Positions 24,857 to 28,202 of a stretch of DNA of 38,040 bases are shown here, in pieces. This DNA comes from a virus. The first letter of the stretch is position 1. Every line of letters starts with the position of its first letter. The translations under genes and the position numbers were made by a program. Location: positions 66,216 to 104,255 of the IMG/VR virus record IMGVR_UViG_3300018954_000017; one strand, written 5' to 3'. The notes beneath the pieces were generated by a model, which searched no databases, had not been told where the DNA came from, and was given only the letters and a program-made list of their open reading frames with translations.

Positions 24857-26446
24857 CTACAGTGTTCCTTCAGCAATCATTTGAATGACTTTAGGAGCAC
24901 TAGGATCAAAGCCAGCGATATCGTAGCTCAGAGGATCACTGGGGTCTACCTGAGTGATATTGTAAGGTGCTAGGGAGATATAAACTGCTTTGGCATTAGG
25001 GTTGATTTGCCGACGATATCTGTCAAGTGCTTGTGATGGGTGCTGATAGCCAGCGAAAGACTCATTGTCTGTCCAGGTACAGAAAACATCCACATGAATC
25101 TTGTTATTAGTTGCCCATTGGTACGCCAATGAAGCATCAGTTGAACCAAAGTTGTTCTTGCGGGTTTTGGCGACGGCATTAGTAAAGCTATCGCTTGCTG
25201 TAATGCCAAGGTCAACGAATTGGTGAGAAAAACCCCGAATGATATAGTTGCGTTCTGCCTTAGCCGTTGCAAGCGCCATTGTTGCTGCTACCTCACAGCA
25301 GGCAATATCGGCACCACCACTGACGGTTGAACTCATGCTGGCTGAGACATCAATTGCATGCATAAAAACCTTGCCCGTTGGCGCTTGAGTCTCAAACGAA
25401 AGGTTCAGAGCCTTGTCTAGAATGTCCACAATTCTTGGTACTGGAGTCCACGTCTTCTGCGAACGACCGAGACTGCCGCCGCTGGAGTAAGTCTTAAGTG
25501 CCTTTAGCACATCAATTGGATGAATTCGAGCGGATCGGAGGGTATCAGGATTGTTAAGTTTTTGTTCAACCAAATCCAGATTACCAATCTTGTCGAATCT
25601 CAACACTCCAATCTCTGTTAATGAACCTAGATTTCGCAGTAACGCTGTCATTGGCATGCTATTGAATAGCTCCTGCCAGACTTCGGGGGTCATTCTGGTA
25701 ATTCCAGAGCACATTTCGTGCGTAAGCCGACCTTGGCGAATTGCCTGTACTCCATCATCAGGGTTGCGCTTGAGATATTCAAACCACCAAAGTTGATGGA
25801 GTTCGGGGTCTACGTCATAAATACTTGGTAACTCATTCCAACCGTCAATAATCCAACTGAATAGATTCTGGTGATTGCCCGTTGCTTTGGGCTTGAACAA
25901 CCTCAATACATCTTTGTTACTGTACCCATTCCTTTGCTGGTACTTGAGCAATTGATAGGCTAATGCTTTAGGTTCTTTACTCAACCAACTTAACCCAGCT
26001 TCCTTAACTAGCCGCCCCATACCCCGTACCTGCTTGGTATATGACAGCCACTCATACAAATGAGAACCAGTCCGCACAACTTGTGGGAAAATTTCTTTAA
26101 ATGCCGTTTTAGCTTCTTTAGAGGCATCGGCACTCAATAGCACTAATGCGAATATTGGTGCACTATTGTTAATCGAATGTCCGTCAGAGGCATACAGGAT
26201 TTCTTCTGCAACCTTTCTAGGATCACGAGAAATGGCTTTTTTCACAACCTCTATGAACTCTCCCGTCAATTCTCGCTTTCCAGCATAGTATGTTGACTGA
26301 CTTGTTCCGATGAGCAGGCACCGACGCAACTGTTGCCAGACATCAGCTTCAAACGCCATTGCACCACTCCGACCGCGAATCATGGCTTTGTTGGGAATTG
26401 GTTCAGTTTGAGGGGTTGATTGATTGAAATAGAATGCGTAGTTCAT
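24857..26446 (-). CDS. Ro60 / TROVE-domain RNA-binding protein (Rsr-like) with C-terminal vWA domain
   Basis: TPQTEPIP, RRCLLIGT..TYY, YQLLKYQQRNGYSNKDVLRL, MPMTALLRNLG, RIHP, vWA DVSASM, TDNES, GFD. AGGAGA RBS. Confidence 0.95.
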   Translation of the reverse strand: MNYAFYFNQSTPQTEPIPNKAMIRGRSGAMAFEADVWQQLRRCLLIGTSQSTYYAGKRELTGEFIEVVKKAISRDPRKVAEEILYASDGHSINNSAPIFALVLLSADASKEAKTAFKEIFPQVVRTGSHLYEWLSYTKQVRGMGRLVKEAGLSWLSKEPKALAYQLLKYQQRNGYSNKDVLRLFKPKATGNHQNLFSWIIDGWNELPSIYDVDPELHQLWWFEYLKRNPDDGVQAIRQGRLTHEMCSGITRMTPEVWQELFNSMPMTALLRNLGSLTEIGVLRFDKIGNLDLVEQKLNNPDTLRSARIHPIDVLKALKTYSSGGSLGRSQKTWTPVPRIVDILDKALNLSFETQAPTGKVFMHAIDVSASMSSTVSGGADIACCEVAATMALATAKAERNYIIRGFSHQFVDLGITASDSFTNAVAKTRKNNFGSTDASLAYQWATNNKIHVDVFCTWTDNESFAGYQHPSQALDRYRRQINPNAKAVYISLAPYNITQVDPSDPLSYDIAGFDPSAPKVIQMIAEGTL

Positions 26447-26504
26447 AAATCTCTCCTATATATGACAAGTGGCGCACTCCATCCGAAGATAAAGTACGCC
26501 ACAA

Positions 26505-26632
26505 AGCCGAGAGCAGGACTCGAACCTGCATATCCCGCGTGGAAGGCGATAACCTCAAATCATTCGGCTCCGAGAGGAGCAAGTTGTAGACTCAAGATGT
26601 TTTAGGTGTCCTAACCATTAGACGATCTCGGC
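26505..26632 (-). tRNA. tRNA-Gly(TCC)-like gene with a 56-nt Y-RNA-like insert (26549-26604) in the anticodon stem
   Basis: GCCGAGA TC GTCT-AATGGTTA-GGAC A CC[insert]CGC CTTCCAC GCGGG ATAT GCAGG-TTCGAGT-CCTGC TCTCGGC T. A full cloverleaf once the insert is removed. Confidence 0.85.
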
Positions 26633-26635
26633 ATT

Positions 26636-26764
26636 TGGGACTGAGGACGGGACTCGAACCCGCAACCAGGGCATTATAAGTGCGATAATCTCATCAATTC
26701 AGCTCTTACAAGCAAGATATTAGACAAGAATTTTTACCTGCTCTGCCAATTGAGCTACCTCAGT
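26636..26764 (-). tRNA. tRNA-Ile(TAT)-like gene with encoded CCA and a 53-nt Y-RNA-like insert (26684-26736) in the anticodon stem
   Basis: ACTGAGG TA GCTC-AATTGGCA-GAGC A GG[insert]GCA CTTATAA TGCCC TGGTT GCGGG-TTCGAGT-CCCGT CCTCAGT C CCA. Confidence 0.85.
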
Positions 26765-26772
26765 CAAGTTTG

Positions 26773-26895
26773 GGCTGATGATAGGATTTGAACCTATAAC
26801 CCAAAACTACCTGATAACCTCCATCTGTCGGCTCTATTGAGCAAGGGGTTTGACGAAGATAATGTTTTTGTTCTACCAGATTGAACTACACCAGC
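26773..26895 (-). ncRNA. tRNA-like RNA whose anticodon loop is replaced by the Y-RNA-like insert
   Basis: GCTGGTG TA GTTC-AATCTGGTA-GAAC A AAAAC[insert]GTTTT GGGTT ATAGG-TTCAAAT-CCTAT CATCAGC C. No canonical anticodon loop. Confidence 0.8.
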
Positions 26896-26903
26896 CATGT
26901 GAG

Positions 26904-26970
26904 TAGGGCAAGAGAATGAAAGAAGATGTGGTTCCATAATTAAGTAGATAACCTCCTTTCCGCAGCCCTA
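26904..26970 (-). ncRNA. small free-standing Y-RNA-like hairpin
   Basis: TAGGGC TGCG GAAAGGAGGT TATCT...CAC ATCTTCTTTC ATTCTCTT GCCCTA. The ends pair, and it shares the GAGGTTATC, ATCTT and CTTGC motifs with the three tRNA inserts. Begins at the predicted transcription start. Confidence 0.7.
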
Positions 26971-26975
26971 TCCTG

Positions 26976-27004
26976 ATACTACTGCAATCTTACACATCTG
27001 TCAA
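26976..27004 (-). promoter_or_regulatory. strong sigma70-type promoter for the Y-RNA/tRNA/Ro60 operon
   Basis: TTGACA-gatgtgtaagattgcag (17 nt)-TAGTAT, with +1 predicted at about 26969-26970. Confidence 0.85.
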
Positions 27005-27011
27005 GCATTAG

Positions 27012-27203
27012 TTAGCATTTGGCTAACTTTTGCAGCAACGGATAGCCAAGAGCAAACACTTGCTCCATGAACTCCTGTTTGTTTAAGCCGAGCGTCAGTC
27101 GCATTTCTTCTATCTCATCCTTTTGATCTTCCGGAAGCCTGAAAGGGTATTGTGGGCGTTTCGCACGATAGTTCTTGTAGATTTCTGGGTTTCGTTTAGT
27201 CAT
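27012..27203 (-). CDS. small RHH-like DNA-binding protein
   Basis: QYPFRLPEDQKDEIEEM...LNKQEFM gives a beta-helix-helix pattern. Confidence 0.5.
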   Translation of the reverse strand: MTKRNPEIYKNYRAKRPQYPFRLPEDQKDEIEEMRLTLGLNKQEFMEQVFALGYPLLQKLAKC

Positions 27204-27206
27204 TAC

Positions 27207-28202
27207 CTAATCCTCTTTGAGTAAAAATTTGTTTGAAATTGCCTTGAATGAGATACGCTCACCGCCATCATCAGTTACAAAAACTACACCTTCGCGTTCT
27301 GTAGTGGGCTGTAGCTGGCTTTTGCCTTCTGCATAGGCGAGGATTTCTTCAATAGTATCCGGCAAGCTGAAGATGCTATTGAGTACCGGAACAAACTTTA
27401 GTCCATTCGCCTGAGTCCAGAGTTGAGCTTTAGTTATGTCTACATATTCTCCTTTGCTAATGTCGTAGATATTGAAGACACACAGTTCTGGTTGCTCCAC
27501 CTTGTATTTGTTGCCCTGGATGCCCGGAGCGACAATCTCACCTTGAATGGCTAAGTTCATTCCTTCCAAAAGTTCTTGTAAGTTATACCGTTTGGCAATC
27601 TTCCAATAAATTGAAGACTCGTCTTCATTCAGTTCCCAATTGCGGCTACAAACTCCAAATTGGTCGTTGTAATTAAAGGCTGTGAAAGAAGTTCCATCTA
27701 ATTTCTCAGTTACAGTCCAACTCCTTTGCTGCCATTGCGACAACATTGATGAAAGGTTTTGGATGCGTTCTTCATCAGTTTTAGGGATGAACGAAGGAAA
27801 CGTCCCACTAGCTGATGATGTACCAACAACGGGTAGTGTTACTTCATATTTCGTAATTCCTAGATCTTCCGTAACATCTTGCCCAATCTCTAGATTGCTA
27901 TTGAACGGCAAAGGAAGCACTAGTCCCTGCGATAGTTGCCCTCGCAACTTAATGGTCTTGATACGGAATCCTTCAGTCCCATCAGCCATCTTGCGATAGC
28001 AAGATTTGCGGAGAAACTCATATTCCGGCTTGATGGGCAGCAATGAGTCAATTTCGCAGTAAACCACAAGATTCCCTACCTGGTATTCATCCTTCTTCAC
28101 TACAGCTTGCCATCCGTCCACAATAGCTAGCTCTAGTGCGTCTGCGTTGGGTATCAGGCGGATTTCTGAGATTTGTCGGATTGTTGCTAATTTACGGGTC
28201 AT
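27207..28202 (-). CDS. RNA ligase, DRB0094 (Rnl5)/Rnl2-like family
   Basis: MTRKLATI..IPNADALE..WQAVV, YCEIDS, LRGQLSQGL, KTDEERIQN, motif I EKLDGTS, IQGE, REGVVF, FKAISNKFL. Confidence 0.93.
   Translation of the reverse strand: MTRKLATIRQISEIRLIPNADALELAIVDGWQAVVKKDEYQVGNLVVYCEIDSLLPIKPEYEFLRKSCYRKMADGTEGFRIKTIKLRGQLSQGLVLPLPFNSNLEIGQDVTEDLGITKYEVTLPVVGTSSASGTFPSFIPKTDEERIQNLSSMLSQWQQRSWTVTEKLDGTSFTAFNYNDQFGVCSRNWELNEDESSIYWKIAKRYNLQELLEGMNLAIQGEIVAPGIQGNKYKVEQPELCVFNIYDISKGEYVDITKAQLWTQANGLKFVPVLNSIFSLPDTIEEILAYAEGKSQLQPTTEREGVVFVTDDGGERISFKAISNKFLLKED

What the first reader, a model, noticed from the sequence alone, without database searches (positions are those of the whole stretch)
26904..26970. 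Free-standing 67-nt Y-like RNA is the circular permutant of the tRNA inserts
The first transcribed unit has the same two half-motifs in the opposite order (GGGCUGCGGAAAGGAGGUUAUC first, AUCUUCUUUC...CUUGCCC last) with paired ends and no tRNA domain. One locus therefore holds both permutations, suggesting how Y RNAs and tRNA-linked Y modules interconvert.
Basis: partly seen in the sequence, partly recalled or inferred. Interest (0 to 1): 0.7.

Follow-up and report, generated by a model that had tools for sequence, protein, structure and literature searches.

The report
Small phage Y RNA beside Ro60
The flagged 67-base stretch is most likely an ordinary small "Y RNA", the partner of the Ro60 RNA-binding ring protein encoded just downstream in this probable cyanophage, and it carries the same Ro60-docking helix that the three neighbouring tRNA-shaped RNAs carry in rearranged order.

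Summary
On the minus strand, 26970-26904 folds into a 6-bp terminal stem, a 4/8-nt internal loop, a 10-bp helix and a 23-nt loop. It lies between a sigma-70-like promoter and three tRNA-shaped units, upstream of Ro60.

- Sequence blocks learned only from cyanobacterial tRNA-embedded modules, rearranged into Y-RNA order, score 27.8 bits here. The next site scores 8.0 and shuffled windows reach at most 10.9.
- A covariance model built from short Y RNAs beside Ro60 in four other phage contigs finds this site alone in the 104-kb virus record (25.4 bits, E about 1e-3).
- That family shows strong covariation and includes unannotated RNAs in actinophages.

So the RNA has the canonical Y-RNA topology (YrlB or phiLo Yrl2 type), and it is the tRNA inserts that are permuted. 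The canonical short form was not found in 160 cyanobacterial Ro60 loci. Those loci hold the insert form and a third permutation.

The main weakness is that the bulge reads UGCG instead of the conserved CGAA. Expression, RNA ends and Ro60 binding are untested.

The "interconversion" idea remains speculation, though it fits the published dimeric-tRNA model. This scan has already noted tRNA-shaped Y RNAs on this window and on other DNA.

The parts
26976..27004 (-). Sigma-70-like promoter: TTGACA (27004-26999), 17-nt spacer, TAGTAT (26981-26976). The predicted start is about 26971-26968.
   Evidence: 10 of 12 consensus positions. The region gave 2 such sites against 1.6 expected from shuffles, so this is weak evidence on its own. 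It begins 8 nt after the stop of the upstream ribbon-helix-helix ORF (27012).
26904..26970 (-). Y0, a short Y RNA with canonical topology (67 nt; the covariance-model match spans 26971-26903).
26965..26970 (-). 5' strand of the terminal (upper) stem, UAGGGC. It pairs with 26909-26904.
   Evidence: This is the stem that is capped by a tetraloop in the tRNA inserts.
26961..26964 (-). 5' side of the internal loop, UGCG, at the place of the conserved CGAA Ro60-contact motif.
   Evidence: In 130 cyanobacterial modules these columns read C 125, G 129, A 123 and A 97. All other phage short Y RNAs have YGA here.
26951..26960 (-). 5' strand of the lower helix, GAAAGGAGGU. It is followed by the conserved UAUC.
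   Evidence: The helix is 10 bp with 26927-26918.
26928..26950 (-). Apical loop of 23 nt. It starts with the conserved UAUC and takes the place of the tRNA body.
   Evidence: No T-loop or D-loop match.
26918..26927 (-). 3' strand of the lower helix, AUCUUCUUUC.
26910..26917 (-). 3' side of the internal loop, AUUCUCUU, ending in the conserved CUU.
   Evidence: CUU is near-invariant in the cyanobacterial modules..
26904..26909 (-). 3' strand of the terminal stem, GCCCUA.
26896..26903 (-). 8-nt spacer, CUCACAUG, up to the 5' end of tRNA-shaped unit 1. RNase P cleavage there would set the 3' end of Y0 (inferred).
   Evidence: The analogy is M. smegmatis YrlA and YrlB, which are processed from one precursor (PMC4201824).
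26773..26895 (-). tRNA-shaped unit 1. Its permuted Y module lies at 26868-26813.
   Evidence: Rfam tRNA at 49.5 bits with a 52-nt insert; model R1 at 36.5 bits.
26639..26764 (-). tRNA-shaped unit 2, with a UAU anticodon-like loop. Its permuted Y module lies at 26738-26684.
   Evidence: (29.4 bits).
26505..26632 (-). tRNA-shaped unit 3, with a UCC anticodon-like loop. Its permuted Y module lies at 26606-26548 and has an exact GCCGAAUG motif.
   Evidence: (30.7 bits).
24857..26446 (-). Ro60 / Rsr gene (529 aa), the presumed protein partner.
   Evidence: vWA_Ro60 at 1.3e-42 and TROVE at 6.3e-25; 60-64% identical to cyanobacterial Ro60.

Best explanation
Y0 is a small phage-encoded Y RNA of the hairpin class (Salmonella and M. 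smegmatis YrlB, Thermus phage phiLo Yrl2).

Proposed pathway:
1. It is probably transcribed from the promoter at 27004-26976 as the first part of one precursor: Y0, three tRNA-shaped Y RNAs, then the Ro60 mRNA.
2. It is released when RNase P cuts at the 5' end of unit 1, 8 nt downstream. This step is inferred.
3. Its paired ends, the asymmetric internal loop and the 10-bp helix form the stem-bulge-stem docking site for the phage Ro60 ring (binding inferred).

In Y0 this module is open at the terminal stem, which is the canonical Y RNA layout. In the three neighbouring units the terminal stem is capped by a tetraloop and the far end opens into a tRNA body. The one contiguous stretch shared by every form seen here is the 5' strand (upper stem, bulge, lower helix, UUAUC). 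That is the strand Ro60 mainly contacts in the published structure.

Because it lacks a tRNA-like effector domain, Y0 most likely acts as a gate or competitor for Ro60, or brings a different partner through its loop. This last point is inferred by analogy with the two-Y-RNA sets of Salmonella, M. smegmatis and Deinococcus.
For: - Position: same strand as a TROVE plus vWA_Ro60 gene and 457 nt upstream of its start, in an intergenic gap with no ORF of 50 aa or more.
- Fold: the stem-bulge-stem has the same asymmetry as the three inserts, 4-5 nt on the 5' side and 8-9 nt on the 3' side.
- Own halves pair best: -19.9 kcal/mol against -12.2, -5.9 and -10.0 with the other units' 3' halves.
- Cyanobacterial blocks in permuted order: 27.8 bits, against 8.0 for the next site and 10.9 for the best shuffle.
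- Model R2, built without this window, gives 25.4 bits over its full length. It is the only hit in the whole 104-kb virus record.
- R2 also finds untrained short RNAs next to Ro60 in viral locus L120 and in Rhodococcus phage Trina, Gordonia phage Mareelih and Mycobacterium phage I3, at 22-38 bits.
- Family covariation: in the 13-member alignment 96.6% of cells pair, against about 41% when the partners are slid. 13 of 16 pairs show compensatory changes. The alignment was fitted to the model.
- Published precedent: phiLo Yrl2 is a one-hairpin RNA upstream of phage Ro60 that binds it in gel-shift assays (PMC12135203). YrlB-type hairpin Y RNAs accompany YrlA and can come from a single precursor (PMC4201824).
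Against: - The bulge reads UGCG where CGAA is expected. C, G and A are each kept in at least 123 of 130 cyanobacterial modules, and YGA is kept in all other phage short Y RNAs seen. GCGGAAAG matches GNCGAAN0-1G at 7 of 8 positions, but only in a register shifted into the helix.
- The R2 score is at the low end of the family, and the E-values are rough.
- No close relative of this phage could be fetched, so Y0 has no conservation or covariation evidence of its own.
- The promoter is a bare consensus match. No terminator follows.
- The Rfam Y_RNA and YrlA models do not match Y0.
- Expression, RNA ends and Ro60 binding are all untested.
Confidence: 0.68

Rival explanations
1. Y0 is a decayed or pseudo module. 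It would be a relic of rearrangement within the Y-RNA array that still folds but no longer binds Ro60. It may still be transcribed as a leader.
For: The otherwise near-invariant CGAA/YGA bulge motif is replaced by UGCG. No counterpart exists in 160 cyanobacterial loci. The R2 score is moderate.
Against: Both helices are perfect, at 6 and 10 bp, and stronger than those of the three inserts. The CUU and GGUUAUC motifs are kept. It matches the cyanobacterial blocks better (27.8 bits) than the phage's own inserts do in their own order (15.5, 14.5 and -0.1 bits). A decaying relic would be expected to lose pairing first.
Confidence: 0.15
2. Y0 is a structural 5' leader of the polycistronic precursor. 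It would be a stabilising 5' hairpin or a processing or attenuation element. Its likeness to the Y module would then serve to recruit Ro60 to the transcript for regulation, and no separate RNA would be made.
For: It sits directly after the predicted start site and 8 nt before unit 1. In cyanobacteria a half-module hairpin lies in the Ro60 leader next to the ribosome-binding site, so module mimics inside the mRNA do occur.
Against: No U-tract or terminator was found. In other phages the same kind of RNA occurs at various places: downstream of Ro60 in L119 and L121, and between a tmRNA and a tRNA gene in phage Mareelih. That argues for a stand-alone RNA. RNase P cleavage of unit 1 would free it in any case.
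Confidence: 0.12
3. The halves of Y0 do not pair with each other. Instead the array folds out of frame: the 5' strand of one module pairs with the 3' strand of the next, giving YrlA-type RNAs that span neighbouring units.
For: Rfam YrlA gives a weak out-of-frame match at 26718-26827, spanning the T arm of unit 1 and the D arm of unit 2 (23.3 bits, E = 0.024 in a 901-nt search, below the gathering score of 69). The strands of different units are similar enough to pair partly.
Against: Pairing within each unit beats pairing with the next unit in every case: -19.9, -13.0, -10.6 and -16.3 against -12.2, -5.9 and -9.1 kcal/mol. All three acceptor stems are perfect 7-bp helices only within their own unit. 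The out-of-frame reading leaves orphan halves at both ends of the array. In cyanobacterial modules the capped upper stem covaries, G-C to A-U.
Confidence: 0.03

Closest known systems
Thermus phage phiLo Yrl2 and Yrl1, Y RNA-like RNAs upstream of the phage Ro60 gene (Nucleic Acids Res 2025, PMC12135203)
   Same: Phage-encoded and just upstream of the phage Ro60 gene. The 5'-3' stem flanks an internal bulge and is followed by a second stem (stem-bulge-stem). Yrl2 is a single hairpin without a tRNA-like domain.
   Different: The phiLo RNAs were picked by their CGAA bulge motif and shown to bind Ro60. Y0 has UGCG at that place and is untested. I did not compare the sequences directly because the phiLo sequence was not at hand. 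The hosts differ (Thermus versus a probable cyanobacterium).
YrlB of Salmonella Typhimurium and M. smegmatis, and Yrn2 of D. radiodurans, the second hairpin-type Y RNAs (Chen et al. 2014, PMC4201824)
   Same: A small hairpin Y RNA encoded beside a tRNA-like Y RNA and Rsr/Ro60. In M. smegmatis both come from one precursor upstream of rsr. There is no full tRNA-like domain.
   Different: YrlB carries the GNCGAAN0-1G motif. No sequence similarity was demonstrated here. The paper says YrlB homologues could not be found outside Salmonella by BLASTN.
YrlA (Rfam RF02553)
   Same: A Ro60-binding stem formed by the RNA's two ends, with the gene next to Ro60. Other phage loci pair a short Y RNA with a YrlA-type RNA (L118, L119, L120).
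   Different: YrlA has a T arm, an acceptor-like hairpin and a D arm between the two strands. Y0 has only a 23-nt loop, and Rfam YrlA does not match it.
tRNA-embedded Y modules of cyanobacterial Ro60 loci and of units 1-3 in this window
   Same: The same four sequence blocks, the same two helices and the same loop asymmetry.
   Different: The strand order is circularly permuted. In the inserts the terminal stem is capped and the lower helix opens into a tRNA body. R1 therefore does not detect Y0.
Metazoan Y RNAs and nematode stem-bulge RNAs (Rfam RF00019, RF01656)
   Same: The stem-bulge-stem Ro60 site formed by the RNA ends. One member of the phage short-Y family (L121:5223-5288) matches RF01656 at 39.3 bits, just above its gathering score of 38.
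   Different: Y0 itself matches neither model.

Membership tests
Bacterial/phage short Y RNA (YrlB, phiLo Yrl2 type) | Encoded close to a Ro60/Rsr gene (within about 2-4 kb) on the same strand | tested here: met
   Y0 ends 457 nt upstream of the Ro60 start codon on the same strand.
Bacterial/phage short Y RNA (YrlB, phiLo Yrl2 type) | 5' and 3' ends pair to give stem, internal bulge, then a second stem | tested here: met
   A 6-bp stem, a 4/8-nt loop and a 10-bp stem. Family covariation gives 96.6% paired cells and 13 of 16 pairs compensatory.
Bacterial/phage short Y RNA (YrlB, phiLo Yrl2 type) | CGAA / GNCGAAN0-1G motif on the 5' strand of the bulge | tested here: not met
   The bulge reads UGCG. 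GCGGAAAG matches 7 of 8 positions only in a shifted register. Unit 3 has an exact GCCGAAUG.
Bacterial/phage short Y RNA (YrlB, phiLo Yrl2 type) | Detectable likeness to other members in sequence and structure together | tested here: met
   Model R2, built from four other phage loci, gives 25.4 bits, E about 5e-4 to 1e-3 (rough), over the full length. It is the sole hit in the 104-kb record.
Bacterial/phage short Y RNA (YrlB, phiLo Yrl2 type) | Binds Ro60, with accumulation that depends on Ro60 | not testable with these tools
   Needs gel-shift assays, immunoprecipitation or Northern blots.
YrlA (RF02553) | tRNA-like domain (T arm, acceptor-like hairpin, D arm) between the strands of the Ro60-binding stem | tested here: not met
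   The loop is 23 nt. There is no tRNA or YrlA match over 26904-26970 at E up to 10.
Cyanobacterial tRNA-embedded Y module (model R1) | Strand order: lower 3' strand, upper 3' strand, cap, upper 5' strand, lower 5' strand, set inside a tRNA body | tested here: not met
   R1 hits only the three inserts. Y0 matches the same blocks only in permuted order.
Metazoan Y RNA (RF00019) | Match to the Rfam covariance model | tested here: not met
   No match at E up to 10 in the region or in the whole record.

The most novel reading that the evidence does not exclude
One Ro60-docking 'dumbbell' (upper helix, bulge, lower helix) occurs in nature in three circular permutations:
- open at the terminal stem: Y0 and other phage short Y RNAs;
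- open at the far end into a tRNA body: the three inserts here and more than 400 cyanobacterial modules;
- open in the 3'-strand loop: the first unit of many cyanobacterial arrays.

In each form the 5' strand stays continuous in every example found. If Ro60 binds all three, then the 5' strand alone defines a Y RNA. YrlA, tRNA-shaped Y RNAs and hairpin Y RNAs would be reading-frame shifts of one tandem array. That would give the dimeric-tRNA origin model living intermediates, and this phage would hold two of the forms in a single transcript.
Probability: 0.4. Interest if true: 0.7.

Novelty: new member of a known kind. Interest (0 to 1): 0.5.

Why it matters
Taken alone, Y0 adds one more phage Y RNA. 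It appears to be the first seen in a cyanophage-like genome: no cultured phage in the GenBank collection has a Ro60 above 34% identity to this one.

- Natural experiment: the same docking helix is presented with free ends in Y0 and with capped ends on a tRNA body in units 1-3, next to the same Ro60. One binding experiment could therefore ask whether Ro60 needs the RNA termini, and whether the CGAA bulge is essential, since Y0 lacks it.
- Annotation: the covariance model for short Y RNAs made here finds unannotated members in well-studied actinophages. Some lie under small 'hypothetical protein' calls, so it has annotation value.
- Evolution: the permutation series bears on the open question of how Y RNAs arose from tRNAs.

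Tried and rejected
The contigs of the closest Ro60 proteins (P0002-P0006, 67-85% identical) could therefore not be fetched, and conservation of Y0 in near relatives is untested.
- The search for related loci with the single proteins P0001 and P0002 found nothing in viral contigs.
- blastn of the locus against GenBank phages gave no match.
- The loose DNA pattern for the insert module returned more than 80 listed unrelated viral contigs. A stricter Y0-order pattern gave four G+C-rich chance matches without Ro60.
- nhmmer with half-module profiles was too weak even for the true inserts, at 8.5 bits or less. I replaced it with block matrices in a fixed order.
- My first base-pair descriptor and the block scan without per-block thresholds were swamped in the cyanobacterial loci by neighbouring-unit and partial matches. 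One thresholded version was too strict and missed Y0 itself.
- The genome search with model R2 on the window's own genome returned nothing, although cmsearch on the same DNA finds Y0. I take this as a prefilter miss, not as evidence.
- Rfam Y_RNA gave no match.
- No supplementary tables of Chen et al. 2014 are held. I could not check which cyanobacterial 'YrlA with long acceptor stem' calls correspond to these arrays.
- Whether a fourth permutation exists, open in the 5' strand, was not tested. My detectors assume that strand is continuous.

Full report
**Setting.** The window is part of a 104-kb IMG/VR virus record. It carries phage-type replication genes: a DnaB-like helicase, a UvrD-like helicase with an intein, and an AntA-like protein.

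On the minus strand the order is:
- an RNA ligase gene (27207-28202);
- a small ribbon-helix-helix ORF (27012-27203);
- a 565-nt non-coding stretch;
- a 529-aa Ro60 gene (24857-26446; vWA_Ro60 at 1.3e-42, TROVE at 6.3e-25).

This Ro60 is 60-64% identical to Ro60 of Nostocales and other cyanobacteria. It is at most 34% identical to any Ro60 in cultured phages, all of which are actinophages or other non-cyanophages. ARAGORN finds no ordinary tRNA gene anywhere in the record.

**The observation.** Read on the minus strand, the non-coding stretch holds, in order:
- a TTGACA-17-TAGTAT promoter-like site at 27004-26976;
- the flagged 67-nt element, here called Y0 (26970-26904);
- an 8-nt spacer;
- three tRNA-shaped units (26895-26773, 26764-26639, 26632-26505);
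- a hairpin, and then the Ro60 start codon.

Unit 1 scores 49.5 bits with Rfam tRNA once a 52-nt insert is skipped.

Y0 folds into a 6-bp terminal stem, a 4-nt/8-nt internal loop, a perfect 10-bp helix and a 23-nt loop. The fold energy is -18.1 kcal/mol, z = -2.0, or z = -2.65 with three extra bases on each side. After permutation, Y0 and unit 1 share 17 of 22-24 positions in the 5' half and 15 of 22-24 in the 3' half. Only 3 and 18 of 2000 shuffles score as high.

**Is the permutation more than chance?** I took the parameters from outside the window. Upstream of 80 metagenomic cyanobacterial Ro60 genes I found arrays of tRNA-shaped units. Each carries the module AUCCUUGUUC-N-CUUGCC-cap-GGCCGAAGAAUUGAGGGUUAUC.

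- The two helices are supported by covariation: 89% of cells pair, against 60% or less when the partners are slid, and the upper helix switches G-C to A-U.
- A covariance model (R1) built from 45 of these modules, with none from the window, hits exactly the three phage inserts at 36.5, 30.7 and 29.4 bits. The next site scores 10.7.
- R1 finds 230 modules in the 80 metagenome loci, all on the Ro60 strand.
- A block-matrix scan finds 267 modules in 78 of 80 named cyanobacterial genomes, against 0 on the opposite strand.

From 130 distinct cyanobacterial modules I then made four ungapped block matrices: the lower 3' strand; CUUGCC; the upper 5' strand with its bulge; and GAGGGUUAUC. I scanned the window for these blocks in the permuted, canonical Y-RNA order. 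The best site is 26968(-) at 27.8 bits. The next two sites, at 8.0 and 6.7 bits, are partial overlaps with units 3 and 1. The maxima of thirty shuffled windows average 2.6, with a highest value of 10.9.

**What Y0 is.** Five other viral contigs with a Ro60 gene (30-44% identity) each have a short hairpin RNA of 53-69 nt nearby. Its form is stem, YGA-type bulge, stem, GGUUAUC loop, CUUG/AUUG, stem, and all five fold like Y0. Three of these contigs also have a YrlA-type RNA next to it.

A covariance model (R2) built from four of these RNAs gives the following:
- It finds Y0 over its full length at 25.4 bits, E about 5e-4. The next site in the window scores 12.9.
- Y0 is the only hit in the whole 104-kb record.
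- It recovers the fifth, untrained viral RNA (L120, 22.2 bits).
- It finds unannotated RNAs beside Ro60 in Rhodococcus phage Trina (38.2 and 27.0 bits), Gordonia phage Mareelih (33.4 bits) and Mycobacterium phage I3 (26.0 and 23.2 bits).

Over the 13 matches, 96.6% of cells pair, against about 41% when slid, and 13 of 16 pairs show compensatory changes. The alignment is model-fitted, so it leans towards the structure.

Y0 therefore belongs to a broad class of short phage Y RNAs with canonical topology, in which the RNA ends close the Ro60-binding stem. Such RNAs are already known:
- YrlB and Yrn2 accompany the tRNA-like Y RNA in three bacteria. In M. smegmatis they come from one precursor upstream of rsr (PMC4201824).
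- Thermus phage phiLo encodes Yrl1 and Yrl2 upstream of its Ro60. They have a stem-bulge-stem with a CGAA bulge, and gel-shift assays show binding (PMC12135203).

**Which form is the permutant?** Y0 has the canonical layout, so the inserts are the rearranged form. The canonical short form was not found in 160 cyanobacterial Ro60 loci. R2 gives at most 19.5 bits in the metagenome loci and 17.7 in the named genomes. A block classifier's four 'canonical' calls all proved on inspection to lack the closing 3' strand of the terminal stem.

Those loci hold instead:
- 413 insert-type modules;
- at least 49 modules of a third layout. Here the upper hairpin is capped, the lower hairpin is capped, and the tRNA body joins in the 3'-strand loop. 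This layout is usually the first unit of the array (38 of 49). L128:3005-3136 folds this way at -50 kcal/mol, z = -4.8.

In all three layouts the 5' strand stays in one piece: upper stem, bulge, lower helix, UUAUC. This agrees with the published view that Ro60 mainly reads the 5' strand. My detectors assume that continuity, so a fourth layout was not excluded.

**Do the strands pair within each unit or between neighbours?** Chen et al. and Wang et al. describe cyanobacterial 'YrlA with a much longer acceptor stem' and a dimeric-tRNA origin model. I therefore asked whether the array might fold out of frame. Rfam YrlA does give a weak out-of-frame match across units 1 and 2 (23.3 bits, far below the gathering score of 69). 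Three results go against that fold:
- Duplex energies favour each module's own halves (-19.9, -13.0, -10.6, -16.3 kcal/mol) over pairing with the next unit (-12.2, -5.9, -9.1).
- All three acceptor stems are perfect only within their own unit.
- The out-of-frame reading leaves orphan halves at both ends of the array.

**Weak points.**
- The bulge of Y0 reads UGCG where CGAA, or at least YGA, is kept almost everywhere else. A 7-of-8 match to GNCGAAN0-1G exists only in a register that runs into the helix.
- The promoter is a plain consensus match in a region where shuffles give as many. Read-through from the upstream genes is possible.
- No terminator follows. The 3' end is inferred from RNase P cutting at unit 1.
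Y0 therefore has no conservation evidence of its own.
- Rfam Y_RNA does not match.

**Mechanism proposed.** One transcript yields Y0, three tRNA-shaped Y RNAs and the Ro60 mRNA. RNase P and 3' trimming release the RNAs, and each presents the same docking helix to Ro60. Units 1-3 add a tRNA-like effector part. Y0 adds only a loop, so it would act as a gate or competitor, or carry another partner.

What is shown: the sequence, the fold, the family likeness and the genomic linkage. What is inferred: transcription, processing, binding and role.

**On 'interconversion'.** Both permutations do sit in one locus. A tandem array read half a unit out of frame does turn one layout into another: canonical or YrlA order into insert order. 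That fits the dimeric-tRNA model. Nothing here shows the direction or the mechanism of change. Y0 looks closer to other phages' short Y RNAs in layout, and closer to the cyanobacterial consensus in sequence.

**Verdict.** This is an ordinary member of a known kind, in an unusual setting. Earlier notes of this scan had already described the tRNA-shaped Y RNAs, on this window (e1-5618141) and in cyanobacteria (e1-2694082). I re-derived those points independently.

Noticed in passing
L122-L285, the 40 nt before the Ro60 start codon (e.g. L128:3460-3500): Nearly all cyanobacterial Ro60 genes are preceded by a hairpin UUUGCC-N4-GGCCGGGAG. It copies the capped upper stem of the Y module and runs straight into the ribosome-binding site. 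A strict pattern matched 82 of 152 loci, and the 12 non-matching loci printed all show close variants. This could be a site where Ro60 represses its own translation. The phage leader lacks it.
   Followed up: partly
L128:3005-3136, and at least 49 units in L122-L285: A third circular permutation of the Y module inside a tRNA body. The order is D arm, capped upper hairpin, capped lower hairpin, small hairpin, T arm. It is usually the first unit of the cyanobacterial array. The fold is -50 kcal/mol, z = -4.8.
   Followed up: partly
L288:2079-2149 and 2355-2422 (Mycobacterium phage I3); L286:4867-4930 (Gordonia phage Mareelih); L287:1735-1805 and 1996-2057 (Rhodococcus phage Trina): These are unannotated short Y RNA candidates beside Ro60 in cultured actinophages (23-38 bits with R2). 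In phage I3 they lie inside two small annotated 'hypothetical protein' genes (241 and 242), which may be miscalls. In Mareelih the RNA sits between the tmRNA and a tRNA-Arg gene.
   Followed up: partly
L287:2143-2351: Rhodococcus phage Trina has a 209-nt 'tRNA-OTHER' pseudogene annotated directly upstream of Ro60. R2 gives a 22.3-bit match at 2280-2410, so this may be a YrlA-type or tRNA-embedded Y RNA.
   Followed up: no
L121:5223-5288: One phage short Y RNA matches the Rfam nematode sRNA family RF01656 (ceN72-3_ceN74-2) at 39.3 bits, above its gathering score of 38. From memory, this family belongs to the stem-bulge RNAs regarded as nematode Y RNA homologues.
   Followed up: no
window 27207-28202 (-) and 27012-27203 (-): An ATP-type RNA ligase gene (PHA02142 OB-fold plus RNA_ligase domains) and a ribbon-helix-helix gene lie directly upstream of the Y RNA/Ro60 unit. 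This recalls the rsr-yrlBA-rtcBA linkage of Ro60 with an RNA ligase in Salmonella, but with an unrelated ligase.
   Followed up: no
window 26469-26502 (-): The hairpin between unit 3 and the Ro60 ribosome-binding site has at its tip CUUC-GGAU-GGAG, which resembles a capped piece of the module's lower helix. No U-tract follows. Its role is unknown.
   Followed up: no
window 26718-26827 (-): Rfam YrlA gives a weak out-of-frame match (23.3 bits) from the 5' strand and T arm of unit 1 to the D arm and 3' strand of unit 2. This shows that a tandem array of tRNA-shaped Y RNAs looks like YrlA when read half a unit out of step.
   Followed up: partly
whole virus record (L293-L296 plus the window): ARAGORN finds no ordinary tRNA or tmRNA gene in the 104-kb record. 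The three tRNA-shaped units are therefore not part of a phage tRNA cluster.
   Followed up: yes
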